64,000 nt of DNA from Candidatus Omnitrophota bacterium. Lineage in GTDB: Bacteria; Omnitrophota; Gorgyraeia; Zapsychrales; Fredricksoniimonadaceae. Under the pieces are notes generated by a model that saw only the letters and a program-made list of their open reading frames with translations, was not told the origin of the DNA and did not search any database. The translations under genes and the position numbers were made by a program. Of this stretch, positions 4,909-61,946 are shown piece by piece (the first letter of the stretch is position 1; every line of letters begins with the position of its first letter). The stretch covers positions 815 to 64,814 of the forward strand of contig JAKFXC010000058.1 of the NCBI GenBank assembly GCA_021731625.1. Direction: 5' to 3'.

Positions 4909-4997
4909 AGCAGCCCAGCCGGTTGTCCAAACTGGTAAAACAGCCCGCGTTGTTGTAGACTTCCTACATGCCCCCAGACTTAAACTTAAAATGTGTT

Positions 4998-47360: not shown

Positions 47361-47664
47361 CGCGGGGTGGAGCAGCCCGGTAGCTCGCTAGGCTCAATAT
47401 GGGCGACCGATTGAGAAATCAATCGGCAGATGACCTGTCAAATTCGGGGGAGCCCGCAAAGGTAATCCCGAGCCAAGTCCGCCGAAGTTCCGATTTATCG
47501 GAACGAAGGTGGAAAGGTGTAGAGACTAGATGGCAGGTACCCGACCTGAAAAGGTGGGTAAAGGTATAGTCCAGACCACAAATCTCGTCGGAAAATGAGA
47601 GCGGCGAAAGCCGTAGCTGGTACGCATAACCTAGAGGTCGCAGGTTCAAATCCTGTCCCCGCAA
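47361..47664 (+). tRNA. initiator tRNA-fMet(CAU) interrupted by a group I intron (exons 47361..47394 and 47625..47664)
   Basis: The spliced sequence CGCGGGGTGGAGCAGCCCGGTAGCTCGCTAGGCT|CATAACCTAGAGGTCGCAGGTTCAAATCCTGTCCCCGCAACC is near-identical to E. coli tRNA-fMet, including the C1xA72 mismatch. Confidence 0.85.
47395..47624 (+). ncRNA. group I self-splicing intron (230 nt) inserted 5' of the anticodon between U33 and C34
   Basis: The 5' exon ends in U and the intron ends in G. The conserved core segments CCCGAGCCAAGUCCGCCGAAG and GGUGUAGAGACUAGAUGGCAGGUACCC...GGGUAAAGGUAUAGUCCAG resemble the cyanobacterial tRNA and Tetrahymena group I cores (GCCAAGUCC; AGACUA). Confidence 0.8.
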
Positions 47665-47876
47665 CCCGTGCAGATTAGGACGTTGTCCGAAAGGATAGCG
47701 TCCTTTTCTGTTTACTGGGTATTTAGTGTTTTAAATTTGACTTTATAAAATAAATATGCAAAATAATTAAAGAAGCATTTCTCTCGTTCCACTCCCGCCG
47801 CTTCTACTCCGTGTCTTTCTTTGTAAATCCTTTTGATGCGACATAACCTTGATAGTATCGTGATTGATTTTTTGGA

Positions 47877-48338
47877 ATGGATACAAAACTCAAAGCTGAT
47901 ATAGCTGAATCAGCAGTAACTACTGAACTATTAAGCAGAGGGTTTAATGTTCTTAAGCCCATTGGTGATCGACTATGTTACGATCTAGCTATTGACATAA
48001 AAGGAAAATTAACGCGTATTCAAGTTAAACATGCTTGGTTCAATTATCGAGATAAAGCATATTTGGTAGATGTTAGAAGAACAAATACTAATAGACGACG
48101 GATGCTAAGAAAAAGATATTGCAATGAAGATTTTGAATTTGCAATTATTTATTTAGACGCCAAGGTTTATTATGTCATGCCCGCATGTATTTTTAATTCT
48201 TTTGGCAGCAACATTTCTTTTGTGGAAGATTCAAAAAGACAAAGACTTCCAAAATCTGTCAATTATCGCGAAAGATGGGATTTATTGAGTGAGTCAGTTT
48301 TTAATGTTACGGAAGGACCATGCCGCACACATGGATAA
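47877..48338 (+). CDS. small AT-rich ORF with a PD-(D/E)xK nuclease-like motif
   Basis: E...D(x)n...CYDLAIDIKGKLTRIQVKH (D..DxK..Q.K pattern). GC content is visibly much lower than the surrounding genes. Immediately downstream of the tRNA. Confidence 0.35.
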   Translation: MDTKLKADIAESAVTTELLSRGFNVLKPIGDRLCYDLAIDIKGKLTRIQVKHAWFNYRDKAYLVDVRRTNTNRRRMLRKRYCNEDFEFAIIYLDAKVYYVMPACIFNSFGSNISFVEDSKRQRLPKSVNYRERWDLLSESVFNVTEGPCRTHG

Positions 48339-48508
48339 CAGTTTGTACCGGAGACGTGGGTGACACAATCTCCGGTGCGATGAACGAGGCCGCCCAGACC
48401 CAGCCAAATGGCGGGGTCTTCTAAGAGCCGCACATAGCCCCACATAGCCTTGAATAGCATCTAAATATAGTGCATACTCTATACTGTATCCGTAAACTCA
48501 TCACACGT

Positions 48509-51500
48509 ATGCGCACTGACTTTAAAAGCCTCCTTTTTTCCAGAACCCTATGCCTTGGATTATGCCTTTTAATAGCCATAGGCCAAGGGCCGGTCTATGC
48601 CCAGACTTTGTTTATCAACAGTCTGCCTCCCCCGGGGGACATGCTATCTTTGTCAGCAGACTTTACGCCTGTGGTACTTAGAGGTGTGGTGGTTCATCCT
48701 GACAAACCGTTGAATTTTGATTTCGTTATCGACGCGGGTAATCATACGACTGATCCAAAGATTCTCAGGACCGAAGGCGAGCGCATGGTTAAGTATTTTT
48801 TGGCGGCGTTAACCGTACCCTCCAAGGATTTATGGGTCAACTTATCACCTTATGAGCATGAGCGCATTATTTCTAAGGAGCTTGGTGACACTGAGCTTGG
48901 TCGAGACATGTTGGCGCAGGATTATGTGCTTAAGCAGCTGACCGCCTCGCTTATTTATCCTGAGAGAGGTTTGGGTAAGAAGTTTTGGGACAAGGTATAT
49001 GATCAGGCAAGAACAAGGTATGGCGTCACCAATATTCCCATGCAAACATTTAACAAAGTTTGGATTACTCCAGCCTCCGCTGAGATCTATGAAAAAGATA
49101 ATACGGTCTATGTGACTAAGGCAAGGCTCAAGGTCAAGTTGGATGAGGATTTCCGGTCGTTGACAAGAAATAAAATAAACACAACAGGAGCTCACGCTTT
49201 AACTCCCCAAGTCTTAAGACAAGTTATCATTCCCGCTCTTGAAAAAGAAGTCAACGAGGGAAAGAATTTCGCCTCGTTGCGTCAGATTTACCATGCCACT
49301 ATTTTGGCCAAATGGTATCGTCAAGCCATCACAAAATCCCTGCTTTCTCGTTTTTATATCGACAAGAATAAGATCAAGGGCATTGACCTCGATGATAAGA
49401 CGATCAAGGAGCAAATTTACGAACGTTATATAAGGGCTTATAAAAAAGGGGTCTTTAATTATATTAAAGAAACTCCCATGCCCAATGGCCAACTGGCACC
49501 AAGAAAATATTTTTCAGGCGGAATCTCTCAACTTGATCAAATTCCATTTGATCATGCACAAACAGTGGAGATTCCTACTCAACCTCATTTTGTTATGAAT
49601 GTGGAATTAGATGCACCTGCCATTGCAAACCCAGCCATGACCCCCGATCTTAATTTTGCTATGACTTCTTTTTGGGATGATTTCGCATTGGATCGACCCG
49701 TCGACTCGTTGGTCCAGGGAATTCTTTATATGGAGAGTCGGCTGATACCCGGTCCTCATTATGAAATGGAGTGGGGAATGCGGCAAAGGATCATCGACGC
49801 ACTTGGTATTTTGAATCAAAGGCTGAAAAAGAAAGGAGGGAAGAGAACAGTAGATTTTTTGAAGGCCCTTCTTCGGGAAAATAGTCCCGTTTATGAGAAG
49901 AACCCCGATGTCCAAGAAACGATCGGCCGTGTATTGGTGTTTCTCGACCAAGAGGCGGGAAAGCAAGTAACTGAGGACCATCGTTTATTGAAGGAGGCTC
50001 TGCAGATCATTTACCCTAACCTGCCCAAGAAGAGTATAGATCAGATCTACGGCAATCTAGAACGCGAGGACAGTCAGGTTTCAGAGAACGATATGAAGAT
50101 ATATACTCTCTTTAAAAATCGGAAATCGGATTTGCTTTTACGTAATCAATTTGTTTTGGACAGAATTTTTTCTTTACCTGGTGAGGAATTGGAAAACTTA
50201 ATCAAAAATTTTAAGGAGATTGACAGTCTGTTTGCGCACAGCGGTCTTGTGGATCCTTTGGGAGAGTATGTGCAGCTGGCGTATTTAATGGAAATGATTT
50301 TGCCTGATGTTGCGGTCAACTATCTGAAAGGTTTATATTTCAAAAATGGTGGAATAAAGGTTGTGATGAGATTTTTGGACAGCAAGAGGTCCTTTTTGCT
50401 CAATGATGGAGCATGGATGGAACTTAGAAAGCTGCTGAGAAAGATGAAAGAACTTAACGGTAAAAGCCGAACCTATAAGCTGGATACGAATTTCTATAAA
50501 ATGTTGAATTTAGCTTCTGCATTTTTGGACCTGGGAGGACCGGAAAAATTAAGCGCTGCTTTAGAATCGGTTGTCCCTTCAAAGAATCAAATAGACGTAG
50601 CTAAACAAATGGAAAGTATACTGCTCAAACAAATGGCTGAATTTTTGAACATCACATCAATTTCTATAAAACCGAATATCCAGGAAAAACTCTACATGCC
50701 ATATTTGTCGAGGATCCGGGTTGCCCTAAAGTATATAAAGGATGAAAAACCTTGGAAGCTCGACAGATTTAAGGCTTTGATTAGAGCCACGTTAGAAGAT
50801 CGCTTTTGGAATTTTATTGAAGACGAGAGTCAATCTGATGAAGAAGGAGCAGAGATTGCCCAGCATAACAAAGGCGTCCGGAAGGCTTTAGCGAAGGTGG
50901 GTATCAATGTGGACCGTTGGCTGGGCAAACAATTGGAGTCCAGGTTACCGGAGGAGAGGTTTACCTTTGGCCAGAATTCATTTATCATCCGGCCTATATT
51001 CCGCAGACCTGGTTATGATGTCTTTCTAGGGGATTTTACAAATTGTTCGGTAGGTATGAGTTCCAATCAGTATCCGGACGGGATGATGGAAAGGCTCATC
51101 GATGAGGGACTCAATACAATTGAAGTTATTGATGAAAGCACACAGAAACCTACGGCTGCAGCTTGGTTATTTGTTGCCGAGGATGGGAGTGTTGTCATTC
51201 AAAATTTGGAAGCCAATACCAATTATGAAAGTGATCCATCGTTAAAGAATTATCTAGGTGAGCAAATGGTGGCTTATACGATGAAATTCGCGAATCATGT
51301 AGGTACGAACCTCCTCCTAATAGGAGATGCGGTACACGGAAAATACTGGGAACAACGTGGGAAAGCCGGGTTTGTCATTGACCATTACGGCAAGAACAAA
51401 GTTAAGTTTGGCTTGGAGAAAATAGGCGGCTATCTTGGAGAGAAATATTACCTTACATCAGCCGGAGAGGAATATGCTTATCTCGTTACTGATTTTGCCA

Positions 51501-54500
51501 TGTACGTTGAGAAAGTTTCAGCCATGCAGGCCGTATCAAAAGCTGCCAGTCCAGCTATGGTAGTTTTCGAAGGCGCTCAGAAAATCACCCCTGAGGAAAT
51601 GGAGGGAGACAGCAAGATTTTAAGCACTTATCTGAAAAAAGAGAACATGGGAGATGTTGACGAAGCTATGAAGTCCAAGGAAACTCAATTGACCCAAATT
51701 ATCAGGGAAAACATTACTGGCAATGTCTCTATCACTTTAAACGAATTGGCTGTAGAGGCGGGGTTTGACGACCCTGCTAATAAAACTTTTCAACGGGTTC
51801 TTCTCAAATACCTTCAAACGATACCTAAAACTATTCTTCATGAACATGTTTCCGGCGTTATTTTCCCGGAAGATTTAATTAGATACTTTTTGGATGATGA
51901 ACCCTCCAAAGAAGAATTTACTGCTGATGAACGTCAAAACAGATTGGAAGCCCGCCGTGAAGCCAGACGGCGATTTGTTTTAACCGTTGATTCCCGCAGA
52001 AGCGGGATCGATTTGCAAGCCAACCCAGTGAATCCCAATAATAGTCAAGAAGAAGCAGACCGTGCTTTTCGAGAGATTTTGGAACTGCCCCAGAAAGTTC
52101 CACTAACTTTAAACGACATTAATTTGCCTAATACCGTTAAAAAACTGAAAATTTTTGTAACCTATAAAGATAAAAATGTCGATTGGAATAACTTTGAACG
52201 CGCTTTTGCTGTTATTAAAACTGTAACAGATGCGCACCCAAGATTTCGCTATGAACTCTTAAGAGAAGGTGTATTGCGGCATTTTAATCAAGACAATGTC
52301 CGTAATCTTGAATTAACCGATTTTCATAGCCAGTCGCTGGGAGAGCTCTTGAAAGAATTGGTTTCCATTGAACAGCAGCTTCATGGGGCAATGACATTGT
52401 CGGTTTTGAAAGCTTTTCGGAAAGATTATTTGGAACGGGTTTTAAAGCAGGCTGAAAAAAATGAGGACTATAGACAAGAAGTGTTTAAGCGGTATCAGGG
52501 GCAGTCATTGGATGAGGTTAAAGAAAGCATTTTCAGAGAAACTTTAAAAATGGACCAACAGTATTTTAAATTGGATCGGGAGAAAATAAAAAAAGAATTC
52601 GAGGAGGCCATCGAGCAGATCAAAGAGAATCTTAACATAGAAAAGAAGGAACAAGTCACTTTAGAAGATTTACGCAATCGGCTTATATTTGCCCTTGAGG
52701 CCCGTAAGTTAGCTTTGAAAGAAGCCAAAGATTTCGAGACAGATCTTAATCGACTAGAACTTAACGAGCCGCTCTTGCGTAAGCGTATCGGCGGTATCAG
52801 CAGCATCGGAAATGAAACAGGCTATATCAATTGGGTCGGCTCTCCTATTTTGCGTAACGCCCGCCGGATTGGGTTAAAGATTTCTTCCCATATGGGAGAA
52901 GTTTGGGAACCGAGCCAGTATGTGACGTCTTTAAAACGCATTAAATATGAAATTGAAAATGGGGTTAACCGACTCGCTCACGTGACGGTATTAGGATTGG
53001 ACTATGGACCATCAACGCGCATCCCAATATCTGAACCGGAGCGAATCGACGCTCAAAAACTTCAGGAAGAAATATTTAGTCTCCTGCTGCGGAATAATAT
53101 TCATATTGAACTTCAGCCAACCAGTCAAATCATTACCTCTGCCGATTTTAACGATTACAAAGGTCACATCATTAGGAAATTTTTTAAAATGAACAAAAAT
53201 GGCAGTGGTCTAAGTTTTTCTATTAATCCTGATGACAGCAGCATCTTCGATACCTCTTCCTCGCAAGAAGAACTTGCTGTTTGGCTCGCCAACCCGGAAC
53301 TTCCCTATTCAGTTCTGAGTCAAACGTTTCTTATGGCTAATGATGCCAGATTTTATGAGTCACCCCGCCGGGTCAAAAGACGATTGAGGAATGAACGGCG
53401 AAAGGTTTGGGCAGCGATCAAAGGTTTTAATAAACCCATTCAACGTCCCGCTATCGTAGTCATTGGGAGCGCGCGTATCCCTGATGGCGGTCCACAAGAA
53501 GAGACAGGACGAGAAATTGGGAAATTGGCTTGGGAAAATAGTACAGCGATCAAAACCGGAGGCGGTCCGGCAGCTATGAAGTGGCCTTTGGAAGAGTTCA
53601 TTAAGTCTAGAGAAGACCGTTTCAGAGCCCTGCGCAAACGAGGCTTATCTATACCTGACAACGTTCCAGTTCAGTCCATTAATGTGTTGGTGAATACGTT
53701 CGAACCCGAAAATAAATCTCTGGAACAAAATTATATGTTTCGCCATTTTGTATTCCGGAAATTAGGGCTACATTTAAACGCGCTAGGGCTTATCGGCATT
53801 CATGGCGGTCTAGGAACATGGGATGAAATTTTTGAAGGCTGGCGGCGTCGACGGGAAATATCGTTGATCGGAGAAAGTTACTATAAGCCTATTCTTGATG
53901 TGTTAAAAGATCGCTGGGAATTTGCGGGATTACTAGATCGTGTGGACTACTGGCCATTTGTGACTAACAGCAGCGAGGAAGCCTTTTATCACATCCTTGA
54001 CCATGCCGATAAACACAGAGTCATAATTCCAACTCAGAAACAAACAATGGCAGTCATCAAAGAAATGGAAAACGGCATCGACAAATTATCCGCGCTACCA
54101 CGGGCGGTCGTTATTCTGGGAAAGCCGGAAGATAATGCGTATGGACGGACGGTTCTTAATCAACTCAATGGTATTATTTCTCCGATTTTTAAGATGAAGG
54201 TTCCTGTCCGTATTGCTAGCCGTGGAATTATTTTGGGATCGGTTCTTAAGCAGGCACAGCAGCTTCGAGCGGAGTCGGTTTTGCAAGCTGTTCTGTATAA
54301 GAAAGAGGAAGTCGAGGGGCTTGTCCCAAGCGAACAGTATGTCAAACAGCATTTACCAGGGCAAACCCTATTTCTCGAAGATGATTCTAATCACCAGCTG
54401 CTGCTGACGTATGATGCGCGTGGTTATATTGTTTTGCCTGGGGTAGTTGGAATATTCAATAAACTTTTTGATATTGTGGTGGCCATGCAAACCGGCAGTA

Positions 54501-54967
54501 TACGCCGTAAACCAATTATTTTGGTGGGGCGTGAATTTTGGGAACCGATTTTAAAAATTTTGAAACAAACAATGGAGAATTATGACCCACCTTTAGTGTC
54601 TAAAGGCGATTTTGAATTGATGACAATTATTGATACACCTCAAGAGGCCACTGAAGAATTGGCCTTAAACGGCATTGGTGAAAGGACCGATGCCGCGATG
54701 ATGGGGACAGGAAACCGGGCCATGAACGACACCATCCATACAGGCCGAAAGCAAGACTTTGGCGGTATTGATCTTCAGGCGGACAAAATAAATCTGCACC
54801 GCCAAAATGATGGGCAAGAAATCAACGTTCATGCTGACCCAGCCATGATCGAGCAATTTCAAAACGCCCCCGGCTTTGTGCCGGTCATCATTAATATTCG
54901 CCCCCTGACAGATATTCGTATGTTCCTTGGCATCAATAAAGATCAGACCCACCCTAAAACAGGGTAA
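48509..54967 (+). CDS. giant exported multi-domain protein, paralog B (2152 aa from M14): shared N-domain, adenosine/AMP-deaminase-like domain, two LOG-like domains, shared C-terminal module
   Basis: Signal peptide MRTDFKSLLFSRTLCLGLCLLIAIGQGPVYA. The N-domain is homologous to 4998..8183. ADA-like motifs with correct spacings: LHEHVSG (HxH), SSHMGE (HxGE), RLAHV, ITSADF. LOG-like 1: VVIGSARI...TGGGPAAM...LIGIHGGLGTWDEI. LOG-like 2: LPGVVGIFNKLFD...KPIILVG.EFWEPI. C-terminus GGIDLQADKINL...NAPGFVPVIINIRPLTDIRMFLG. Confidence 0.6.
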   Translation: MRTDFKSLLFSRTLCLGLCLLIAIGQGPVYAQTLFINSLPPPGDMLSLSADFTPVVLRGVVVHPDKPLNFDFVIDAGNHTTDPKILRTEGERMVKYFLAALTVPSKDLWVNLSPYEHERIISKELGDTELGRDMLAQDYVLKQLTASLIYPERGLGKKFWDKVYDQARTRYGVTNIPMQTFNKVWITPASAEIYEKDNTVYVTKARLKVKLDEDFRSLTRNKINTTGAHALTPQVLRQVIIPALEKEVNEGKNFASLRQIYHATILAKWYRQAITKSLLSRFYIDKNKIKGIDLDDKTIKEQIYERYIRAYKKGVFNYIKETPMPNGQLAPRKYFSGGISQLDQIPFDHAQTVEIPTQPHFVMNVELDAPAIANPAMTPDLNFAMTSFWDDFALDRPVDSLVQGILYMESRLIPGPHYEMEWGMRQRIIDALGILNQRLKKKGGKRTVDFLKALLRENSPVYEKNPDVQETIGRVLVFLDQEAGKQVTEDHRLLKEALQIIYPNLPKKSIDQIYGNLEREDSQVSENDMKIYTLFKNRKSDLLLRNQFVLDRIFSLPGEELENLIKNFKEIDSLFAHSGLVDPLGEYVQLAYLMEMILPDVAVNYLKGLYFKNGGIKVVMRFLDSKRSFLLNDGAWMELRKLLRKMKELNGKSRTYKLDTNFYKMLNLASAFLDLGGPEKLSAALESVVPSKNQIDVAKQMESILLKQMAEFLNITSISIKPNIQEKLYMPYLSRIRVALKYIKDEKPWKLDRFKALIRATLEDRFWNFIEDESQSDEEGAEIAQHNKGVRKALAKVGINVDRWLGKQLESRLPEERFTFGQNSFIIRPIFRRPGYDVFLGDFTNCSVGMSSNQYPDGMMERLIDEGLNTIEVIDESTQKPTAAAWLFVAEDGSVVIQNLEANTNYESDPSLKNYLGEQMVAYTMKFANHVGTNLLLIGDAVHGKYWEQRGKAGFVIDHYGKNKVKFGLEKIGGYLGEKYYLTSAGEEYAYLVTDFAMYVEKVSAMQAVSKAASPAMVVFEGAQKITPEEMEGDSKILSTYLKKENMGDVDEAMKSKETQLTQIIRENITGNVSITLNELAVEAGFDDPANKTFQRVLLKYLQTIPKTILHEHVSGVIFPEDLIRYFLDDEPSKEEFTADERQNRLEARREARRRFVLTVDSRRSGIDLQANPVNPNNSQEEADRAFREILELPQKVPLTLNDINLPNTVKKLKIFVTYKDKNVDWNNFERAFAVIKTVTDAHPRFRYELLREGVLRHFNQDNVRNLELTDFHSQSLGELLKELVSIEQQLHGAMTLSVLKAFRKDYLERVLKQAEKNEDYRQEVFKRYQGQSLDEVKESIFRETLKMDQQYFKLDREKIKKEFEEAIEQIKENLNIEKKEQVTLEDLRNRLIFALEARKLALKEAKDFETDLNRLELNEPLLRKRIGGISSIGNETGYINWVGSPILRNARRIGLKISSHMGEVWEPSQYVTSLKRIKYEIENGVNRLAHVTVLGLDYGPSTRIPISEPERIDAQKLQEEIFSLLLRNNIHIELQPTSQIITSADFNDYKGHIIRKFFKMNKNGSGLSFSINPDDSSIFDTSSSQEELAVWLANPELPYSVLSQTFLMANDARFYESPRRVKRRLRNERRKVWAAIKGFNKPIQRPAIVVIGSARIPDGGPQEETGREIGKLAWENSTAIKTGGGPAAMKWPLEEFIKSREDRFRALRKRGLSIPDNVPVQSINVLVNTFEPENKSLEQNYMFRHFVFRKLGLHLNALGLIGIHGGLGTWDEIFEGWRRRREISLIGESYYKPILDVLKDRWEFAGLLDRVDYWPFVTNSSEEAFYHILDHADKHRVIIPTQKQTMAVIKEMENGIDKLSALPRAVVILGKPEDNAYGRTVLNQLNGIISPIFKMKVPVRIASRGIILGSVLKQAQQLRAESVLQAVLYKKEEVEGLVPSEQYVKQHLPGQTLFLEDDSNHQLLLTYDARGYIVLPGVVGIFNKLFDIVVAMQTGSIRRKPIILVGREFWEPILKILKQTMENYDPPLVSKGDFELMTIIDTPQEATEELALNGIGERTDAAMMGTGNRAMNDTIHTGRKQDFGGIDLQADKINLHRQNDGQEINVHADPAMIEQFQNAPGFVPVIINIRPLTDIRMFLGINKDQTHPKTG
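54758..54967 (+). repeat. dispersed C-terminal-module repeat, copy 2
   Basis: About 80% nt identity to 7968..8183 over the core. Confidence 0.6.
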
Positions 54968-55214
54968 AGTTAGCGGCAAGTCCTGGCCCTTCTTACCGTA
55001 AGTCCTTTAAATTCAATAGGCATCAAAGTCGCCCGGTAGGTCGCAAGGATCATATTCCCTGGCTGACATTGCTTTGAGGCATGTTCTTACTCGTAGTAAG
55101 AAAGTAACGAGGTAAGGAATGGCAGAAGGTACAGAAATTAGCTTCGGCTAGCAGCCCTCGCAGGGTCGGATTTTGCTATAACAAAATCCGGGAACACAGA
55201 TTCTTAAATTAAAT

Positions 55215-55248
55215 ACGGGCAGTCCTTAAGTGGGCTGCCCGTTTTTTT
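55215..55248 (+). terminator. rho-independent terminator downstream of the 2152-aa gene
   Basis: ACGGGCAG, loop tccttaagtggg, CTGCCCG, then TTTTTTT. Confidence 0.6.
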
Positions 55249-55353
55249 GTGTAAAAGAATTGCTTAAAAGGTTGAATCCAGTTTCAAACGATACTAGGAT
55301 GATTATAGTTCAAAGTCTTTAATAGAATATTTTAATTTCTTTTGGAGAAAACA

Positions 55354-58300
55354 ATGTTCAAATTTCTTCTTATTGTATTATTCTGGGTGGTCAATTTTTC
55401 GAATGTTAATACTTATGCCCAGAGTACCACGTCACCGCTTGCCATTGAGGAGCAAGAAGTTAAAAAGATCAATAATGAATTGATCAATGACCGAAAAGTA
55501 TATAAGAGGAACCCTAGAAATAAGGACCATAAAAAACGCATGGAGCGTAAGTTGCACAAACGAAGAGAAAAGATTCTAAGACTCATGCAAGAGAATCCCG
55601 ATTTACTTAAGAGAATTGCTATGAGTGATCAAGAATCAGCGGATTTGCCCCCGGATTTTCAAAATTTGGTTGAGCGTCGTGTCAAAGAAGAAGGCGCTAT
55701 GGAAGTGATTGTTGAGGATCGCAATGACGGGGCAGTTGTGCATCAGTTTTTAAGGACCCGCAAAGGCCGGAAATTTAAAATGTTTTTGCCTAAAAATATG
55801 AAGTCAAAATTTCTTTCAGGGACCAAGGTGCGTTTTGAAGCCTATCAATTGGATGATCATATGGCCTATAGTGGAAGTCCTGATCAATCGGTTCAAGTTC
55901 TATCAACTCCAGATTCAAAAGTGTTGGGAGAGCAACGGTTATTGGTTGTTATGGCTAATTTTATAGATGGAGGTCCTCAAGGTTGGCAACCGGATGTGGT
56001 CAACAATATCGTTTTTAACGAAGTTAATAATTTTTTTAAAGAAGTATCTTATAATAAAATATGGTTAACTGGTGAGACTAAAGGTTGGATAACATTGCCG
56101 ATGACCTATGAACAAGGTAAATGTCGATTGACAAGTGATGGAAGGGTAGATGAAAATTATAATCGCACAATCCGGAACAAAATTATTAATGAAATTATTC
56201 GAATCATAGATCCCCAGGTGAATTTTCATGATTTTTCACGTATTTTAATAATTTATCCGTATGAAGCTTATGTTTGTGGTTATGCGGGGATTTCCTCATT
56301 AGGTAAAGCTGATCTTGAAACAGCAGATGGTTGGGTCAAGGCTTCTTTGGCTATTGTGTTGACGCAAGCGCCATCGACATCTCTGATTGCACATGAGTTA
56401 GGGCATAGTTTTGGGGTAATGCATGCAAATAACTTAGAATGTGATAATGTCAGTATTGGCACAAGCCCGCCTTGTTATAACATTGAATATGGAGATACCG
56501 GGGATATCATGGGTAGATCAGGTATTTTTCACTTTAATGCAGCGCATAAGGATACATTAGGTTGGTTTTCTCCTTCAAATTTAGCATTGTTTGATACGGT
56601 TGGGACAAATCATTACACGATTAAACCTATAGAAATACCCACCAATGAGCTTCAAGCTTTAAAAATATTACGAGGGCAAGGTTCTCACTTTTATATAGAA
56701 AATCGAAAACCTATTGGTTTTGATATGACCAATAGATTAAATGGTGCTGCTATACATATGGCCTCAGATGTTGTTTTAGGCTCGCATTTATTAGATATGA
56801 CCCCAAAATCTCAAGGGAGTCTGGAAGATTTAAATGATGCTGTATTAAATGTTGGAAAAGTTTTTTATGATCCGGTGGGTCAAATTACGATGGAAACCTT
56901 AAGTGACACATTCCAAGATCTTCAAGTTCAAGTTAAGGTAGATCCTGACACTAATCCGCCGCAAGTTGCTATTGACACGGAAAATACAAAAAGAATGGAC
57001 TATGACCTAAATGCCGTGCAAGTACAAGTTAATTTTTTTGAAAACAGGGGTTTAAAACAAATCGAATTATTTATTGATGATCAATTGTATCAAACCTCAA
57101 CGAATTTTAGTCCTACTAGTGATCAAGTTTCAGAAAGGTTTTATTGGCAAACAACTCAATATAACGAAGGCCCGCATCGATTGGTTGCAAAAGCAACAGA
57201 TTTAGTAGGCAATCAAGCCGTGTCAGCACCAATGATTTTTCAACTTAGTAAAGCCAATACGAATCATGATCCAATAGTACGGGTGTCGGGAAATACAACG
57301 GCGTCCGTTGGCCAGTGGATTTCATTGTTTGCCATCCCAGAAGATGCTGATGTTAACGATTTTCCTTTTGTATCGTATGAGATATCCAAAGAAGGAATTC
57401 AACCATCCACGAATTTAGGTGATGAAATATTTTATTCATTATTAGGGGATGTTGATGCCAGCCAGTTATTGGACAATCGGGATGAAGAGTTTCTAGCCAA
57501 ACATTTAAGTAATCCAGTACAATTTCCTTTGACGGAAAAGCAAAAAATATTAGCAGATGTTACCCAAGATGGGTTCATTAATCAAGCTGATTTGGATTTA
57601 ATCCATAAACTTAGTACATATGAAATTATACAAGATGTTCATGTTTTTTTAGCTAAATTAAATCGGACAGGATACTACAAGGTGAATTTCATTGTATCAG
57701 ATAGAAAAAGCTTTGTTTCTAAATTGGTGGATCTTGAAATTACCAATTCATCGGGTGTTTCTACCAATACGCCTCCGGAATTTCAACCAATCGGTGCCCA
57801 ACACGTTCAAGTAGGATCGACATTAACATTTCCTTTGTTGGCAACAGATAGAGATAATGATGCCTTGTTTTATGCGTTGGAAACACCGGTGCCCAATGGA
57901 GCTCTTCTAAACGGGAATATTTTTGCTTGGACCCCGCGTCCTGAGCAAGCGCTTGCTCCTACCAATGTTTATTCTTTGGTGTTTAAAGTGACAGATCAAA
58001 AATCTTCACCCGTTTCGCAACAAATAACCATTACTGTCAACCAGATACCAAATATTCCCAAAAAATCAACTAAAACAACGTTGGCCCTGTTGTCCAATAT
58101 AAATGTGACAGCTGGAGACCCGATAGACATTGTTGCGATCGTTGGTGAAGGCCAAAACCCAACAGGCCATGTTGATTTTTATGAATCAAGTGTTGCCATT
58201 CCTTCTTGTGTTGGCTTGAGATTAAGGGCAGAATCTATTGCCTGCCATCTGCATTCGTTAAATACCGGCGATTATTTTATAACAGCCCAATATTTGGGTG

Positions 58301-61197
58301 ATCCGTTGAATGAAAATTCAACAAGTCAGGTGTTAGGAATTAAAGTAGAGAAAAAACAGAGTCAAACAAACTTGACATTATCCCCGCCGAGTGGCAATGA
58401 GTTAGGCCAATTGATCACTTTGGAAGCCACAGTCACAGGATTTTTACCATCAGGAACAGTTAGTTTTACTGATCAAGACAATTTTATCACCAACTGTGCT
58501 GCGTTGATACTCAATGGCCAAGGAAAAGTTCAATGCCAGACCAGTACCCTTGGGGTGGGGAATCACGTGATACGGGCTCGATACAACGGGGATTCAAACA
58601 ATACCGAGAGTATAACCTCCGAGCCAATCAATCTGCAGATCAATGCTAAACCCCAAGTAGCAGCCCCAAGTTTTAGCGTGCCAGAGGGAGTATATAATAG
58701 TGAGCAACTTGTTTATTTAAGTACCACAACAATGGGTGCAGAAATCCGCTATACATTAGACGGCAGCTTGCCGACTTCTAGTTACAGTCTGTATCATGGC
58801 ACAGCAATTAATGTGGCCACACAGGCAACCATTAAAGCTGTAGCATTCAAAGATGGCATGGTTGATAGTCTCGTTGCGGTGGCGAATTATACAATCCAAA
58901 TACCTCCACCACCGATCGTAGACCCGCCAATTGTTTTGCCTCCAGTTAATAGATCAATGCCCATGGCGTTTTGGTTGCTGGATGGGAATGGTTATGATGC
59001 GGTGGGTGACAATCATCTAACTTTGGCTGGAACAACGTTTGTCACAGACACAGAGCGTCAACAAGTTTATAGCCTAAACGGCAGCACGGACAAAGCAATA
59101 TCGTATCTGACGGGCCCGTCAGAGAAACTCACCATTGCCACATGGTTTAAACAGACAGCTAGTAGTCCACAGCAGGTGATTTTACAAGGAGGGAACCAAT
59201 ACAACCATGATTTTTATTACCGCTTACAAGTAGTACTTAATCAAGCAAGAAAAGTGCATTATTTGAGTGGAGGGGTAGGCAGCGGTAATGGTCAAGGTTT
59301 TGCCTGGGATGAAAACATTATTTATAAAGAAGGGTGTCCAGTATCTTTGAATGTTTGGCATTTGGGTGTACTGACCCATGATAATGCAACGCATGAGACT
59401 ATTTTGTATCTTGATGGTAATCAATGCTTCAAGGAAAAAAGCAAAAAAGATTTAGCGCCAGCACCAGGATTGACGGTTGGCGCTTTTACAAATCCTGGAT
59501 TTAACTTTTCTGGATTGTTGGATGATGTGCGCATTTATAATAGAGTGCTAAGCCCTGAAGAAATCATCATGTTATATCATTCAACGACACGCCCAGTAAA
59601 CAAAATGAGTACAACGACAACGGTTGTTAGCCATTTCAATCCAGCTACTATTGGTAGCAGCATCACATTTCTGGCGACTGTTGGTAATAATACGAATAAT
59701 GTTCCAACCGGAACTGTGACCTTCTTGGACAACGGGCAGATTATAAATGCTTGTGCTCTTGTGCCTCAAGCTAATGGCATAGCCAGTTGTACAAGTACAA
59801 TCAGTGGATTAGAAGAAATGAACCATATCATTACTGCAAGTTACGGTGGAGATGGCAACAATAGCTCTTCCGTAAGCGCGCCTATGACACAAACAGTAAC
59901 CCCTAACGTTCAAGAGAATCTAACCGCCATTTTATACGGTAGCTCAGAGTGGACGCTTGCCAAGGACCGCGTGGGCCAACAACAAGCAACAGCCATACCA
60001 GATAATGTACGCGACATTCATATTCGATTAAATAATGTGCCAAAGGCGATACAAAAAATAACCATCAAATCCCTAGGTGATGTGGGGGTGTGGGAGTGGC
60101 CGTTCAATGGCCAAAATTGGTATATCGTACGCGAACCCAACAATGGCCCTGGACAAGTAGATCTGTATTTTGATTATTGGAAGGACGTAAACACGTATAC
60201 GATTGATTTGATTTATGATGATGGAAGCTCGAAATCCGTGACCACGGTTCCAGGAATACCAGATCAGGATATAATTCCACCTAACCTGCAAGTAGCAACA
60301 CCAACTTTTAATGTCTCCGAGGGGACATATGATAGTCCACAAAGTGTTTATTTAAATACAACAACAGCGGGGGCAGAAATCCGCTATACATTAGACGGTA
60401 GTTTGCCGACTTCTAGTTCTAATCTTTATAGTGGTGCTGTAATTCAAGTGACGACAAACACAACGATCAAAGCTTTTGCGTTTAAAAATGGTATGACCGA
60501 TAGCCCTATAGCAAGTGCAACGTATACAATCAACATGCCACCAATCAATACACCGCCAGCTGGACTTAAGCTTTGGCTTAAATTTGATGAGGGCACCGGT
60601 ACAACTGTTTCGGATACATCAGGATTGTTGGGTCAACCCGTACGTCATTTTTCCTTTAGTGGAAGCCCAAGATGGGAAGCGGGAAGAATAGGAGCTTATT
60701 CAGGATTCTTTAATGGAACAAATTATCTTAGTTCTAGTGGAGTGAACCTTGGGACCTTTGCTAATTCGTTTGATAATACACAAACAGCTTGGGTTTATCC
60801 CATAAAGCCAGGAAATTCATGCGCCATTTCTTATAACTGTGACGCCATTTTTGGAGATCAACCAGGAACAGGGTATTGGGCCCTTAGTTATGATAACAAG
60901 AATTTTGTGGTTTATAATTGGGATGGCGATGAAGATCAATGCCGGGGCAAGACAGCGTATAACCTCAACGCATGGTATCATGTGGCCAGGGTGCATACGG
61001 GTGGGAAAATTTATTTATATGTTAACGGCAAGGAAGAATGCTCTGTGGCAACAGGAAGTACGCAAAAGATAACGGGAGAGTTTCGTATAGGAAATGGCTA
61101 TTATGGCAGGGGCTTTAAGGGTCGGATCGACGACGCTCGGGTGTACGACCGCGGTTTAAATGCCGATGAGATTAGTAAAATTTTTAATAGTCACTAG
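55354..61197 (+). CDS. giant secreted metzincin-type zinc metallopeptidase with Ig-like, CHB_HEX_C-like and two LamG-like (concanavalin-A-type) domains
   Basis: Signal peptide MFKFLLIVLFWVVNFSNVNTYAQ. HELGHSFGVMH matches HEXXHXXGXXH. Two GAEIRYTLDGSLPTSS...IKA(V/F)AFK(D/N)GM units. LamG signatures LDDVRIYNRVLSPEEI and IDDARVYDRGLNADEI. AT-rich. The track ORF begins at a TTG at 55342. Confidence 0.65.
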   Translation: MFKFLLIVLFWVVNFSNVNTYAQSTTSPLAIEEQEVKKINNELINDRKVYKRNPRNKDHKKRMERKLHKRREKILRLMQENPDLLKRIAMSDQESADLPPDFQNLVERRVKEEGAMEVIVEDRNDGAVVHQFLRTRKGRKFKMFLPKNMKSKFLSGTKVRFEAYQLDDHMAYSGSPDQSVQVLSTPDSKVLGEQRLLVVMANFIDGGPQGWQPDVVNNIVFNEVNNFFKEVSYNKIWLTGETKGWITLPMTYEQGKCRLTSDGRVDENYNRTIRNKIINEIIRIIDPQVNFHDFSRILIIYPYEAYVCGYAGISSLGKADLETADGWVKASLAIVLTQAPSTSLIAHELGHSFGVMHANNLECDNVSIGTSPPCYNIEYGDTGDIMGRSGIFHFNAAHKDTLGWFSPSNLALFDTVGTNHYTIKPIEIPTNELQALKILRGQGSHFYIENRKPIGFDMTNRLNGAAIHMASDVVLGSHLLDMTPKSQGSLEDLNDAVLNVGKVFYDPVGQITMETLSDTFQDLQVQVKVDPDTNPPQVAIDTENTKRMDYDLNAVQVQVNFFENRGLKQIELFIDDQLYQTSTNFSPTSDQVSERFYWQTTQYNEGPHRLVAKATDLVGNQAVSAPMIFQLSKANTNHDPIVRVSGNTTASVGQWISLFAIPEDADVNDFPFVSYEISKEGIQPSTNLGDEIFYSLLGDVDASQLLDNRDEEFLAKHLSNPVQFPLTEKQKILADVTQDGFINQADLDLIHKLSTYEIIQDVHVFLAKLNRTGYYKVNFIVSDRKSFVSKLVDLEITNSSGVSTNTPPEFQPIGAQHVQVGSTLTFPLLATDRDNDALFYALETPVPNGALLNGNIFAWTPRPEQALAPTNVYSLVFKVTDQKSSPVSQQITITVNQIPNIPKKSTKTTLALLSNINVTAGDPIDIVAIVGEGQNPTGHVDFYESSVAIPSCVGLRLRAESIACHLHSLNTGDYFITAQYLGDPLNENSTSQVLGIKVEKKQSQTNLTLSPPSGNELGQLITLEATVTGFLPSGTVSFTDQDNFITNCAALILNGQGKVQCQTSTLGVGNHVIRARYNGDSNNTESITSEPINLQINAKPQVAAPSFSVPEGVYNSEQLVYLSTTTMGAEIRYTLDGSLPTSSYSLYHGTAINVATQATIKAVAFKDGMVDSLVAVANYTIQIPPPPIVDPPIVLPPVNRSMPMAFWLLDGNGYDAVGDNHLTLAGTTFVTDTERQQVYSLNGSTDKAISYLTGPSEKLTIATWFKQTASSPQQVILQGGNQYNHDFYYRLQVVLNQARKVHYLSGGVGSGNGQGFAWDENIIYKEGCPVSLNVWHLGVLTHDNATHETILYLDGNQCFKEKSKKDLAPAPGLTVGAFTNPGFNFSGLLDDVRIYNRVLSPEEIIMLYHSTTRPVNKMSTTTTVVSHFNPATIGSSITFLATVGNNTNNVPTGTVTFLDNGQIINACALVPQANGIASCTSTISGLEEMNHIITASYGGDGNNSSSVSAPMTQTVTPNVQENLTAILYGSSEWTLAKDRVGQQQATAIPDNVRDIHIRLNNVPKAIQKITIKSLGDVGVWEWPFNGQNWYIVREPNNGPGQVDLYFDYWKDVNTYTIDLIYDDGSSKSVTTVPGIPDQDIIPPNLQVATPTFNVSEGTYDSPQSVYLNTTTAGAEIRYTLDGSLPTSSSNLYSGAVIQVTTNTTIKAFAFKNGMTDSPIASATYTINMPPINTPPAGLKLWLKFDEGTGTTVSDTSGLLGQPVRHFSFSGSPRWEAGRIGAYSGFFNGTNYLSSSGVNLGTFANSFDNTQTAWVYPIKPGNSCAISYNCDAIFGDQPGTGYWALSYDNKNFVVYNWDGDEDQCRGKTAYNLNAWYHVARVHTGGKIYLYVNGKEECSVATGSTQKITGEFRIGNGYYGRGFKGRIDDARVYDRGLNADEISKIFNSH

Positions 61198-61216
61198 AAT
61201 AATTACGGCTGACAGA

Positions 61217-61351
61217 ATGAATATCGAAACCCGAATGGATTCTCGCTTGCGTGGCATTAACGGTAAGGGTATTAAATTTAAACTCGACCCAGCCATGGTT
61301 GAGCAATTGCAAAAGCCGACCGATATCCAGATGTTCCTTGGTATTTTATAG
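61217..61351 (+). pseudogene. degenerate orphan copy of the shared C-terminal module (remnant, different frame from the upstream gene)
   Basis: ...RGINGKGIKFKLDPAMVEQLQKPTDIQMFLGIL compared with the paralog C-termini ...DPAMIEQFQNAPGFVPVIINIRPLTDIRMFLGI. Nucleotide-level similarity with an internal deletion. Overlaps the lexA 3' end. Confidence 0.4.
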
Positions 61352-61942
61352 TTTCCGCACCACGGACACAACCACGCCGATGATGGAGGCGGAGTCGTTT
61401 AAGGGAATTGGATTGTAACGAGGATTGGCAGGTTTTAAAAAGTACCCGTCATTTTCTTTCTGCAGATATTTAACAGTTGTTTCTTCTCCTATTAAAGCCA
61501 CTACGATTTGACCCACTTCCGCAAATGATTGTTGCCGCACGATCACCAAATCGCCGGGCAAAATGCCGGCATCGATCATGCTGTCGCCTTTGACCCGCAA
61601 ACCGAAGGTGGTATTGGAAAGCACCAATCGATCCAAATTCAGGTATTCGTCGATATTCTCCACCGCCAACACCGGCGACCCGGCTTGGACCGTGCCCACA
61701 ATGGGGATGGAAAAGAGATTTTCGCGAATGATTTCAATGGCCCGGGATTTTTTTTCGGAAATGCGGATGAACCCTTTTTTGACCAGGGCTTTTAAATGGT
61801 CTTGGGCCGAGCGGGGGGAAGCAAAGGCAAAACGCGCCGCAATCTCCCTGATGCTGGGGGGCAATTGATTGTGTTTAATTTCTTCGTAAATAAATTTGAA
61901 AATTTCCTGCTGTTTTGGGGTCAAACGGTCGAGTTTAGTCAT
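61346..61942 (-). CDS. lexA: LexA repressor
   Basis: N-terminal wHTH (EIAARFAFASPRSAQDHLKALVKKGFI). C-terminal S24 peptidase with GDSM...K dyad (VKGDSMIDAGILPGDLVIV). Confidence 0.85.
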   Translation of the reverse strand: MTKLDRLTPKQQEIFKFIYEEIKHNQLPPSIREIAARFAFASPRSAQDHLKALVKKGFIRISEKKSRAIEIIRENLFSIPIVGTVQAGSPVLAVENIDEYLNLDRLVLSNTTFGLRVKGDSMIDAGILPGDLVIVRQQSFAEVGQIVVALIGEETTVKYLQKENDGYFLKPANPRYNPIPLNDSASIIGVVVSVVRKL

Positions 61943-61946
61943 GCGC

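What the first reader, a model, noticed from the sequence alone, without database searches (positions are those of the whole stretch)
47670..61350. AT-richer ~13.7-kb block bounded by the tRNA-fMet gene and lexA: candidate tRNA-associated island carrying the two largest genes
Everything between the 3' end of the tRNA and lexA is visibly AT-richer than the flanking housekeeping genes: the PD-(D/E)xK-like small ORF, the 2152-aa ADA/LOG protein, a structured intergenic region, and the 1947-aa metzincin/LamG protein. The small ORF and the metzincin gene are especially AT-rich. tRNA 3' ends are classical island insertion sites. No integrase or obvious direct repeat of the tRNA 3' end is visible inside the window, so it may be an old, decayed insertion. 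The intron-bearing tRNA next to a nuclease-fold ORF is also suggestive of mobile-element activity.
Basis: partly seen in the sequence, partly recalled or inferred. Interest (0 to 1): 0.55.

Follow-up and report, generated by a model that had tools for sequence, protein, structure and literature searches.

The report
Mosaic AT-rich region beside intron-split tRNA-fMet
The AT-rich 13.7-kb block in this Omnitrophota genome is real, but it is best read as a patchwork of three unrelated pieces (a homing-endonuclease gene serving the self-splicing intron in the neighbouring initiator tRNA, one member of a very large Omnitrophota protein family, and an orphan giant protease gene) and not as one integrase-type tRNA island.

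Summary
Observation confirmed. Window 47670-61350 has GC 0.414 against 0.522 elsewhere, and the deficit sits at third codon positions.

Interpretation only partly supported. The window comes from a Candidatus Omnitrophota genome. In nine relatives the ftsH-eno-ftsB-tRNA-fMet synteny stops at the tRNA, and the block is absent from the DNA held downstream in two relatives with 82% identical enolase. But there is no integrase, no copy of the tRNA 3' end, and the block is compositionally heterogeneous.

It has three units:
1. The PD-(D/E)XK ORF is a full-length homolog of I-Ssp6803I, the homing endonuclease of the cyanobacterial tRNA-fMet group I intron. Here it is free-standing, with its own promoter-like leader, about 210 nt downstream of a tRNA-fMet split by a 230-nt ORF-less intron. 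Other Omnitrophota carry the same gene inside the intron, a deleted copy, or no intron.
2. Giant A (adenosine-deaminase-like plus LOG domains) belongs to an uncharacterised Omnitrophota family of about 8,000 clusters. Members have low GC3 in every genome tested. A paralog lies at 4968-8183.
3. Giant B is an orphan secreted metzincin. It lies between giant A's C-terminal tail and a decayed copy of that tail next to lexA.

Best reading: a mosaic variable region, not a tRNA-integrated island.

The parts
47361..47394 (+). tRNA-fMet exon 1 (CGCGGGG...GGCT; C1:A72 initiator mismatch)
   Evidence: Read directly from the sequence and aligned to intron-less tRNA-fMet genes of relatives and of E. coli.
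47395..47624 (+). ORF-less group I intron (230 nt) in the anticodon loop, between U33 and C34 by the U(-1)/omega-G rule
   Evidence: Rfam RF00028, 77.6 bits, full model 1-253. Homologous to the introns of L081, L002, L083 and L084. Exact splice-site assignment is inferred.
47625..47666 (+). tRNA-fMet exon 2 (CATAACC...CCCCGCAACC)
   Evidence: The spliced sequence is a canonical 77-nt initiator tRNA.
47677..47714 (+). Intrinsic terminator of the tRNA gene (12-bp stem plus T-run)
   Evidence: L081 has a terminator-like hairpin at the matching place.
47715..47876 (+). Leader of the free-standing endonuclease gene: promoter-like site TTGACT-16-CAAAAT (47737-47764), hairpin AGAAGC/GCTTCT (47771-47776 / 47800-47805), and an 11-nt exon-2-like half site CATAACCTTGA (47842-47852)
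   Evidence: Promoter scan. The leader aligns with that of L081, including the TTGACT box and the hairpin. The 11-mer equals the exon-2 start of the L083/L084-type tRNAs.
47877..48338 (+). Free-standing I-Ssp6803I-family PD-(D/E)XK homing endonuclease gene (153 aa, GC3 0.21)
   Evidence: PDB 2OST E=1e-39, aligned end to end. Pfam PDDEXK_5 3e-37. PADLOC 'HEase' 6e-44. E11, D36, Q49 and K51 are invariant in 36 aligned sequences. 494 homologs, named by NCBI 'group I intron-associated PD-(D/E)XK endonuclease' in Omnitrophota.
48509..54967 (+). Giant A (2152 aa): signal peptide, conserved N-module (about aa 12-372 from the annotated Met), adenosine-deaminase-like and LOG cargo domains, conserved 58-aa C-tail
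   Evidence: GC3 0.43.
55215..55250 (+). Intrinsic terminator after giant A (11-bp stem, 8 GC pairs, T7)
55354..61197 (+). Giant B (1947 aa): signal peptide, metzincin HELGHSFGVMH (aa 347), dockerin-like segment, Big_3_5 x3, CHB_HEX_C/Fn3_assoc x2, LamG_3 x2. An orphan gene with GC3 0.34.
61202..61348 (+). Decayed relic of a family C-tail (..GINGKGIKFKLDPAMVEQLQKPTDIQMFLGIL*), lacking the GFxPVIINIxP core. It forms a direct repeat with giant A's tail (54836-54933).
   Evidence: the repeat finder families D3 and D6; tblastn E=4e-5; family tail HMM E=3e-5 against noise near 1; blastn 88% over 33 nt to giant A's tail.
61346..61942 (-). lexA, the right-hand boundary. Composition is near host (GC3 0.56). 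It is divergent from orf163 and a B-family DNA polymerase.
4968..8183 (+). Paralog of giant A outside the block (1071 aa; N-module 48% and C-tail 55% identical), also AT-richer than its neighbours (GC3 0.52)

Best explanation
The block is a mosaic variable region at a synteny breakpoint, built from three independent units, and not one integrated element.

Unit 1 (47.36-48.34 kb) is a group I intron / homing-endonuclease system. The initiator tRNA gene carries a 230-nt ORF-less self-splicing intron in its anticodon loop. A free-standing I-Ssp6803I-type endonuclease gene with its own promoter-like leader sits about 210 nt downstream. By analogy with I-Ssp6803I, the enzyme should cut intron-less tRNA-fMet alleles at the anticodon-loop sequence. 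The resident intron splits that site and protects the host copy. Repair from this locus would then copy the intron and the linked endonuclease gene into the cut allele (collaborative or trans homing). This selfish element explains the extreme AT-richness next to the tRNA.

Unit 2 (giant A) is a resident member of a very large Omnitrophota family: signal peptide, conserved N-module, variable enzyme cargo, conserved C-tail. Its low GC3 is a property of the gene class in all genomes tested.

Unit 3 (giant B) is an orphan secreted metzincin/adhesin-like gene. It is the most foreign-looking large gene in the block and lies between giant A's tail and a decayed copy of that tail. That suggests it arrived later, by recombination into or beside a family gene that once abutted lexA.

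Shown: homologies, domain content, compositions, synteny, the repeat, and the alternative intron/HEG states in relatives. Inferred: endonuclease activity and target, the homing mechanism, and the order and mode of acquisition.
For: Composition: three GC3 levels (0.214, 0.430, 0.338) against host 0.642+/-0.043. Giant A versus giant B tetranucleotide r=0.55, while giant A versus its paralog gives r=0.80.

HEG: 2OST/I-Ssp6803I E=1e-39. The literature places I-Ssp6803I inside the 655-nt tRNA-fMet intron of Synechocystis, with a 23-bp target (PMC1995217, PMC3384342). The catalytic-motif positions are invariant.

Locus states in Omnitrophota:
- HEG embedded, with its ATG 2 nt after the 5' splice site, in L083 and L084, and in at least 25 of 120 homologs whose N-terminal extensions translate tRNA exon 1.
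- HEG-deleted intron in L002.
- Intron-less tRNA in L001 and L003-L007, L039, L043.
- ORF-less intron plus free-standing HEG in the window and in L081/L082, with a homologous leader. Homology stops at the HEG stop codon.

Collaborative homing is a documented pathway in two phage systems (PMC3984707).

Family: more than 2,200 word-filtered hits and 7,993 50%-identity clusters for the N-module; in all 150 listed matches the module is at or near the N-terminus. Members are at or below flanking GC3 in L165, L167, L169, L173 and in the window's paralog.

Giant B: only 7 weak non-self hits, <=32% identity over 9-22% of its length or up to 47% over about 5%.

Tail relic.

No integrase and no att repeat.
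Against: No close relative (same species or genus) could be found, so there is no empty-site comparison, and the order of events is inferred. 82% enolase identity is distant enough for ordinary rearrangement to explain different gene content downstream of the tRNA. About 4.9 kb of the source contig beyond the window was not examined and could hold a recombinase. The giant B homolog search pre-filters candidates by shared words, so distant homologs of a repetitive multidomain protein may be under-reported. Endonuclease activity, target and intron splicing are untested. The low GC3 of the family could itself reflect frequent lateral transfer, which would blur the distinction between 'resident family' and 'island cargo'.
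Confidence: 0.62

Rival explanations
1. It is a classical integrase-mediated genomic island. The island inserted into the 3' end of tRNA-fMet as one piece and is now old and decayed, with the integrase and attR lost.
For: The AT-rich block starts immediately after the tRNA and its terminator. Synteny breaks at the tRNA in all relatives. The block is absent from the DNA held downstream in L001 (about 2.1 kb) and L081 (10 kb). Relative L081 does carry a 19-nt direct repeat of the tRNA 3' end 145 nt downstream, showing that duplications of that end occur at this locus.
Against: No integrase, recombinase or transposase domain in any ORF of the block. No full or partial copy of the tRNA 3' end anywhere else in 64 kb, even allowing 3 mismatches. 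There are three distinct compositional classes. The gene adjacent to the tRNA is the intron's own homing endonuclease, and the DNA shared with L081 ends at its stop codon. Giant A's family is AT-skewed in other genomes at loci with no tRNA. No homologs of either giant occur next to tRNA-fMet in any relative.
Confidence: 0.12
2. There was no horizontal transfer. The whole block is native, and its AT-richness is a gene-class effect: long, weakly expressed secreted proteins plus a selfish nuclease drifting towards the AT-biased mutational equilibrium.
For: GC1 and GC2 are host-like, and only GC3 drops. N-module family members are at or below flanking GC3 in every genome tested, and the gap grows with host GC. 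In this window every AT-rich patch is an accessory gene: the paralog, the Phd/ParE pair, and the HEG.
Against: A 1271-aa secreted TPS protein in the same window has normal GC3 (0.61), so length and secretion are not sufficient. Giant B has essentially no homologs and the most deviant oligonucleotide signature of the large genes. The block is absent from the DNA held downstream of the tRNA in the two relatives at 82% enolase identity. The tail relic shows a rearrangement beside giant B. The intron/HEG is polymorphic among relatives.
Confidence: 0.2
3. The small PD-(D/E)XK gene is no longer a homing endonuclease. It has been domesticated, for example as a defence or repair nuclease, and its position beside the tRNA is a historical leftover.
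For: It lies outside the intron and has its own promoter-like leader, conserved between the window and L081. The PADLOC library lists this HEase model among proteins associated with defence systems. SPARDA effector nuclease papers also cite I-Ssp6803I.
Against: It remains tightly linked (about 210 nt) to an intron-occupied tRNA-fMet in both genomes where it is free-standing. It is 67-69% identical to the intron-embedded copies and has the identical MDTKLKADIAES start and the same invariant motif positions. Its extreme AT-richness is typical of selfish genes. No partner defence genes are adjacent.
Confidence: 0.06

Closest known systems
I-Ssp6803I and the tRNA-fMet group I intron of Synechocystis sp. 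PCC 6803 (PDB 2OST; Bonocora & Shub 2001; Zhao et al. 2007)
   Same: Same host gene (initiator tRNA) with the intron in the anticodon loop. Same endonuclease family: E=1e-39, aligned over the whole length, about 150 aa, with the D...QxK motif positions conserved. Group I ribozyme core present.
   Different: Here the intron has no ORF (230 nt against 655 nt), and the endonuclease gene lies outside the tRNA gene, behind its terminator, with its own promoter-like leader. The host is Omnitrophota, not a cyanobacterium. Activity, target and exact cleavage positions are untested.
[quoted passage not shown]
   Same: An ORF-less intron occupies the presumed target site, and a free-standing endonuclease gene lies immediately beside the interrupted gene. 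The intron would confer immunity and hitch-hike on the repair event.
   Different: The published cases are in phage protein-coding genes with other nuclease families. This one is a bacterial chromosomal tRNA gene with a PD-(D/E)XK enzyme. Both the embedded and the free-standing states of the same HEG family occur at the same locus in related genomes. Which state came first is unresolved.
tRNA-associated genomic islands / integrative elements (tyrosine-recombinase type)
   Same: AT-rich, lineage-specific DNA beginning at the 3' side of a tRNA gene, at a synteny breakpoint.
   Different: No integrase, no att direct repeat, heterogeneous composition, and the tRNA-proximal gene belongs to the intron system.
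Omnitrophota very large proteins ('Archaeovorin' and 'Dockerin-type' giants; bioRxiv 10.1101/2023.11.21.568195 and 10.64898/2026.06.07.730766)
   Same: Same phylum. Giant A's family carries the same cargo domain repertoire listed for Archaeovorins (PPDK_N, NUDIX, Lysine_decarbox, HEAT, methyltransferases). Giant B has a dockerin-like segment and carbohydrate-binding/adhesion domains. Both have signal peptides.
   Different: These are 2-kaa proteins, not >30 kaa. The N-module/C-tail bracket that defines giant A's family was not found in term searches of either paper or in the one section read in full. No SecA-like or C39 domains were detected here.

Membership tests
I-Ssp6803I-type PD-(D/E)XK homing endonuclease (Pfam PF11645 PDDEXK_5) | Full-length sequence similarity to I-Ssp6803I / PF11645 above the curated threshold | tested here: met
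   Pfam 128 bits against a cut-off of 26.1, covering profile positions 1-137 of 138. 2OST E=1e-39. PADLOC HEase 148 bits.
I-Ssp6803I-type PD-(D/E)XK homing endonuclease (Pfam PF11645 PDDEXK_5) | Conserved catalytic motif (E11, D36, Q49-x-K51; residue roles recalled from Zhao et al. 2007, paper not held) | tested here: met
   These four positions are invariant in 36 aligned sequences and present in the window protein. They align to the same residues of 2OST.
I-Ssp6803I-type PD-(D/E)XK homing endonuclease (Pfam PF11645 PDDEXK_5) | Encoded within the group I intron whose insertion site it targets | tested here: not met
   The ORF lies 210 nt downstream of the tRNA 3' end, beyond a terminator, and the intron has no ORF. 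The feature is met in relatives L083 and L084.
I-Ssp6803I-type PD-(D/E)XK homing endonuclease (Pfam PF11645 PDDEXK_5) | Site-specific cleavage of the intron-less tRNA-fMet gene | not testable with these tools
   Needs an in vitro cleavage assay. Candidate substrates are the intron-less alleles of L001, L003 and L005.
Group I intron (Rfam RF00028) | Covariance-model match above the gathering score over the full core | tested here: met
   77.6 bits against a gathering score of 50, model positions 1-253.
Group I intron (Rfam RF00028) | Exons that join into a functional gene; U before the 5' splice site and G at the intron 3' end | tested here: met
   Exon1 + exon2 give a canonical 77-nt initiator tRNA matching the intron-less orthologs. 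The GGCU|CA...ACG|CAUAACC boundaries fit the rule. Self-splicing itself was not tested.
Collaborative-homing pair (free-standing HEG plus ORF-less intron at one site) | An ORF-less intron occupies a conserved site, and a free-standing HEG is adjacent to the interrupted gene | tested here: met
   The same arrangement is seen in L081/L082.
Collaborative-homing pair (free-standing HEG plus ORF-less intron at one site) | [quoted passage not shown] | not testable with these tools
   Inferred from homology to I-Ssp6803I, whose 23-bp target spans the tRNA-fMet anticodon region (PMC3384342).
Integrase-type tRNA genomic island | Site-specific recombinase (integrase) gene within or at the edge of the island | tested here: not met
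   No recombinase, integrase or transposase domain in any ORF of 47.7-61.3 kb (Pfam, PADLOC, PHROGs). The 4.9 kb of the contig beyond the window were not seen.
Integrase-type tRNA genomic island | Direct repeat of the tRNA 3' end (attL/attR) bounding the island | tested here: not met
   Only the tRNA itself matches the 24-nt and 17-nt 3'-end probes at <=3 mismatches. No repeat family involves 47625-47668.
Integrase-type tRNA genomic island | Uniform foreign composition and presence/absence as one unit among close relatives | tested here: not met
   Composition is heterogeneous. The part shared with L081 ends at the HEG. A true empty-site test was impossible because no close relatives were found.
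Omnitrophota N-module/C-tail protein family (unnamed) | Signal peptide plus a ~330-aa conserved N-module at the N-terminus, and a ~58-aa GGIDL...DPAML..GFxPVIINIxP tail at the C-terminus | tested here: met
   Giant A: N-module HMM 530 bits, tail HMM 81 bits. Paralog: 542 and 83 bits. 108 of 119 retrieved relatives carry the tail.
Metzincin metalloprotease (giant B) | HExxHxxGxxH zinc-binding motif within a metalloprotease-like domain | tested here: met
   HELGHSFGVMH at aa 347. Peptidase_M11 26.3 bits against a cut-off of 21, plus weak Reprolysin hits. The Met-turn was not examined.

The most novel reading that the evidence does not exclude
The Omnitrophota tRNA-fMet locus would be the first bacterial chromosomal example of collaborative homing. 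It would also be a natural series capturing every stage of the life cycle of a composite mobile intron at one site: empty site, ORF-less intron plus free-standing HEG, HEG embedded 2 nt after the 5' splice site, and HEG-deleted intron. Endonuclease-induced breaks at the tRNA would also drive the turnover of downstream DNA, making the HEG, and not an integrase, the cause of the 'island-like' variable region. Separately, the N-module/C-tail family (about 8,000 clusters; signal peptide followed by cytoplasmic-type enzymes) could be a new delivery or display system for effector enzymes of these putatively predatory or parasitic bacteria.
Probability: 0.25. Interest if true: 0.75.

Novelty: new variant of a known kind. 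Interest (0 to 1): 0.48.

Why it matters
It corrects a tempting annotation. An AT-rich block next to a tRNA is not necessarily an integrase island. Here the tRNA link comes from a group I intron and its homing endonuclease, and most of the AT-richness comes from a gene family that has low GC3 wherever it was examined.

The locus is useful for intron biology. The proposed route to mobile introns (a free-standing endonuclease pre-adapted to an intron insertion site, later captured by the intron) rests on two phage systems. Omnitrophota offer the same endonuclease family in free-standing, embedded and deleted states at one orthologous chromosomal site, so the pathway and its direction become testable by phylogenetics and simple biochemistry.

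It also exposes a very large, unannotated Omnitrophota protein family. That family explains giant A, a second gene in the window, and a gene relic, and it deserves study in its own right.

Tried and rejected
1. Exact-sequence look-ups of four window proteins and of P0001 found no contig on record, so the source contig could not be retrieved or extended.
2. The single genome-contig scan (enolase) gave Omnitrophota relatives at 82% identity at best, so no empty-site comparison was possible.
3. The single metagenome scan (LexA) returned only relatives at <=45% identity, so lexA-anchored synteny is uninformative.
4. Searches for a tRNA 3'-end repeat found none.
5. Rfam scans of the HEG-to-giant-A and giant-A-to-giant-B spacers found nothing above noise.
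6. The giant B N-terminal half has no tblastn hit in plasmids. The only PDB sequence hit is a LamG-like arabinanase segment.
8. A viral-contig scan with the single HEG sequence found nothing. With a profile it found two relatives (52% and 29% identity). The former is free-standing beside an uninterrupted tRNA-Met, which is suggestive, but no close vector was identified.
9. The idea that the window's ORF-less intron is a recent HEG-deletion derivative was rejected. Unlike L002's intron, it shares no ORF remnants with the embedded type apart from the ORF's last ~30 nt at the core boundary, and it has its own P1-P2 region.
10. The Zhao et al. 2007 paper (target sequence and residue roles) is not held. 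Residue roles are therefore from memory.
Full report
**Source and observation**

Enolase relatives identify the window as Candidatus Omnitrophota. The best matches are Omnitrophota MAGs at 82% and about 70% identity.

The compositional observation is correct:
- Window 47670-61350 has GC 0.414 against 0.522 elsewhere. No 13.7-kb window to the left falls below 0.510.
- The contrast lies almost entirely at third codon positions. GC3 is 0.214 (small ORF), 0.430 (giant A) and 0.338 (giant B), against 0.642 +/- 0.043 for 39 other genes. GC1 and GC2 are ordinary.
- The left edge is sharp, just after the tRNA terminator. The right edge falls inside the 3' end of lexA.

**The tRNA and its neighbour**

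ARAGORN reports no tRNA here, but Rfam finds a complete group I intron at 47385-47590 (77.6 bits).
- Reading the sequence gives exon 1 at 47361-47394, a 230-nt ORF-less intron at 47395-47624, and exon 2 at 47625-47666.
- The spliced product is a canonical initiator tRNA that matches the uninterrupted orthologs in relatives.

The 153-aa ORF at 47877-48338 is not merely 'PD-(D/E)XK-like'.
- It aligns end to end with PDB 2OST (E=1e-39). From memory, that entry is I-Ssp6803I; the PDB record itself names it only 'Putative endonuclease'.
- I-Ssp6803I is the homing endonuclease encoded inside the 655-nt tRNA-fMet intron of Synechocystis. It recognises a 23-bp site (PMC1995217, PMC3384342).
- Positions E11, D36, Q49 and K51 are invariant across 36 aligned sequences and present here.
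- The database holds 494 homologs. NCBI names the Omnitrophota ones 'group I intron-associated PD-(D/E)XK endonuclease', and PADLOC's HEase model scores 148 bits.

**Four states of one locus**

The same eno-ftsB-tRNA-fMet locus in other Omnitrophota shows four states:
1. Intron-less tRNA: L001, L003-L007, L039, L043.
2. Intron with the endonuclease ORF embedded, its ATG 2 nt after the 5' splice site: L083 and L084. In addition, at least 25 of the 120 closest homologs have called N-termini that translate tRNA exon 1.
3. Intron with the ORF internally deleted: L002 aligns to positions 1-10 and then from position 414 onward of the L084 intron.
4. ORF-less intron plus a free-standing endonuclease gene downstream of the tRNA: the window and L081/L082.

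The window and L081 (enolase 82%) share the unit [tRNA 3' end - terminator - leader - HEG].
- The leader includes a TTGACT/-10 promoter-like pair and an AGAAGC...GCTTCT hairpin.
- Homology stops at the HEG stop codon.

L001 is equally related (82%) and has neither intron nor HEG. This presence/absence pattern is what a homing element produces.

[quoted passage not shown] I found no paper in the held library on group I introns in Omnitrophota tRNA genes.

A 52%-identical relative is free-standing beside an uninterrupted tRNA-Met on a viral contig.

The endonuclease's activity, its target and the direction of the embedded/free-standing transition are all inferred.

**Giant A**

Giant A has more than 2,200 relatives, but they share only its first ~370 residues (about 50-58% identity) and its last ~58 residues.
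- The architecture is: signal peptide, conserved N-module, variable cargo (here an adenosine-deaminase-like domain and LOG domains), then a C-tail (GGIDL...DPAML.QLQNapGFxPVIINIxP...LG).
- An exhaustive search finds 7,993 50%-identity clusters with the N-module, which is at or near the N-terminus in all 150 listed matches.
- Neither Pfam nor NCBIfam covers the N-module or the tail.
- An AlphaFold model (pLDDT 72) has no significant PDB match.
- The cargo repertoire of relatives (PPDK_N, NUDIX, HEAT, methyltransferases, Lysine_decarbox and others) echoes that listed for 'Archaeovorin' giants (10.1101/2023.11.21.568195). The bracket itself was not found in that paper or in 10.64898/2026.06.07.730766, going by term searches of both and one section read in full.

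Two facts bear on the island hypothesis:
- The window holds a second member at 4968-8183 (N-module 48%, tail 55% identical). It lies far from any tRNA-fMet and is also AT-richer than its neighbours (GC3 0.52).
- Family members in four other genomes lie at or below flanking GC3. The values are 0.56 against about 0.70 in L167, 0.35-0.40 against 0.42-0.50 in L165, 0.43 against 0.47 in L173, and 0.48-0.59 in the five-gene array of L169, whose few non-family genes span 0.44-0.64. Several of these members sit among housekeeping genes.

Low GC3 is therefore a property of the gene class. Giant A's deficit (-0.21) is the largest seen.

**Giant B and the tail relic**

Giant B has a signal peptide, HELGHSFGVMH, a dockerin-like segment, Ig-like domains, CHB_HEX_C and LamG domains.
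- It has only seven weak non-self hits: <=32% identity over 9-22% of its length, or up to 47% over about 5% (single shared domains). The named sources are Acidobacteriota and Myxococcota.
- It has no plasmid hit.
- Its oligonucleotide signature is the most deviant of the large genes (r=0.63 to host, r=0.55 to giant A).

Between its stop codon and lexA lies a 147-nt relic of a family C-tail. The tail HMM gives E=3e-5 against noise near 1, the relic lacks the GFxPVIINIxP core, and 33 nt are 88% identical to giant A's tail. Giant B plus its upstream spacer is therefore bracketed by direct repeats of tail sequence.

I infer that a family gene once abutted lexA. Giant B then arrived later, either by recombination within tail homology or with deletion of a third family member.

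**Island tests**

- No integrase or transposase is present.
- No copy of the tRNA 3' end occurs anywhere else in the window at <=3 mismatches.
- The composition falls into three classes.
- The ftsH-eno-ftsB-tRNA block is conserved in relatives, but the downstream genes differ in every one: two-component genes, HTH-PIN plus ankyrin, NadE/Amt/GS-III, GH94, lipase/Pho/Amt/T4SS and others. lexA is never nearby.
- LexA is genuine (TIGR00498) and pairs divergently with orf163 and a B-family polymerase. Its nearest relatives are 45% identical at best, so the right-hand side cannot be anchored.

The locus is thus a real synteny breakpoint and variable region, but the hallmarks of integrase-mediated insertion were tested and not met.

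**Verdict**

The block is a mosaic variable region: an intron/HEG selfish element, a resident member of an AT-skewed family, and a probably acquired orphan giant (confidence about 0.6). The rivals are a decayed classical island (about 0.12), a wholly native region showing a gene-class effect (about 0.2), and a domesticated nuclease (about 0.06).

The finding as framed is of moderate interest. Its most valuable by-products are the chromosomal collaborative-homing-like arrangement, with all life-cycle states at one locus, and the large uncharacterised N-module/C-tail family.

Noticed in passing
window 48509-49669 and 4968-6100 (N-modules); 54790-54964 and 7953-8174 (C-tails): An uncharacterised protein family whose named members are all Omnitrophota: signal peptide, ~330-aa conserved N-module, variable cytoplasmic-type enzyme cargo, ~58-aa C-tail. 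It comprises 7,993 50%-identity clusters. No Pfam or NCBIfam model covers either conserved part, and the AF2 model has no significant PDB match.
   Followed up: partly
window 25036-25564: The only other strongly AT-rich 1-kb bin in the window is a Phd/YefM antitoxin plus ParE toxin pair (Pfam 4e-17 and 6e-11).
   Followed up: yes
window 47842-47852: The 11-nt sequence CATAACCTTGA lies 25 nt upstream of the free-standing HEG start. It is identical to the exon-2 start of the tRNA-fMet alleles of L083, L084, L004 and L007, whereas the window's own exon 2 reads CATAACCTAGA. It may be a half homing site carried with the HEG. The chance expectation is about 1e-3 for this spacer.
   Followed up: partly
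L081 9727-9849: Between the functional intron-containing tRNA-fMet and the HEG cassette lies a degenerate second copy of the intron 3' end plus exon 2. It ends in the exact 19-nt tRNA 3' end (AATCCTGTCCCCGCAACCA). This looks like a scar of imprecise gene conversion or duplication at the locus.
   Followed up: partly
L002 11791-12027: The group I intron in this relative's tRNA-fMet is an internal-deletion derivative of the HEG-containing intron. It keeps the first 10 nt and the last ~70 nt of the ORF.
   Followed up: yes
L171 2875-3514 (IMG/VR viral contig): A 52%-identical relative of the endonuclease is free-standing between two tRNA genes on a viral contig. It ends where an uninterrupted tRNA-Met(CAT) begins.
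   Followed up: partly
window 61346-64000: lexA is divergently arranged with a 163-aa ORF of no known family and a B-family DNA polymerase gene (NF004416, 153 bits, partial at the window end). This is probably an SOS-type unit. The LexA protein has no relative above 45% identity among the metagenome contigs retrieved.
   Followed up: partly
window 12514-16329: A 1271-aa protein with a TPS (two-partner secretion) domain and normal host composition. It is a useful control showing that length and secretion alone do not lower GC3.
   Followed up: yes
window 58646-58908 and 60281-60543: A 263-nt internal direct repeat (73% identity) within giant B, consistent with duplication of a domain module.
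   Followed up: no
window 47387-47391 / 47632-47636 (anticodon stem): The initiator tRNA has only two of the three consecutive G:C pairs usual in bacterial initiator anticodon stems (CTAGG/CCTAG). Several Omnitrophota relatives share this (CAGG/CCTG, AAGG/CCTT).
   Followed up: no
L169 2285-25088: A tandem array of five N-module family genes interleaved with toxin-antitoxin pairs (Gp49/HTH_37; DUF6290/ParE) in another Omnitrophota genome. This suggests that family members cluster in plastic regions.
   Followed up: no
L081 7476-7567: A c-di-GMP-I riboswitch (Rfam, 64.8 bits) lies on the minus strand upstream of enolase in relative L081.
   Followed up: no
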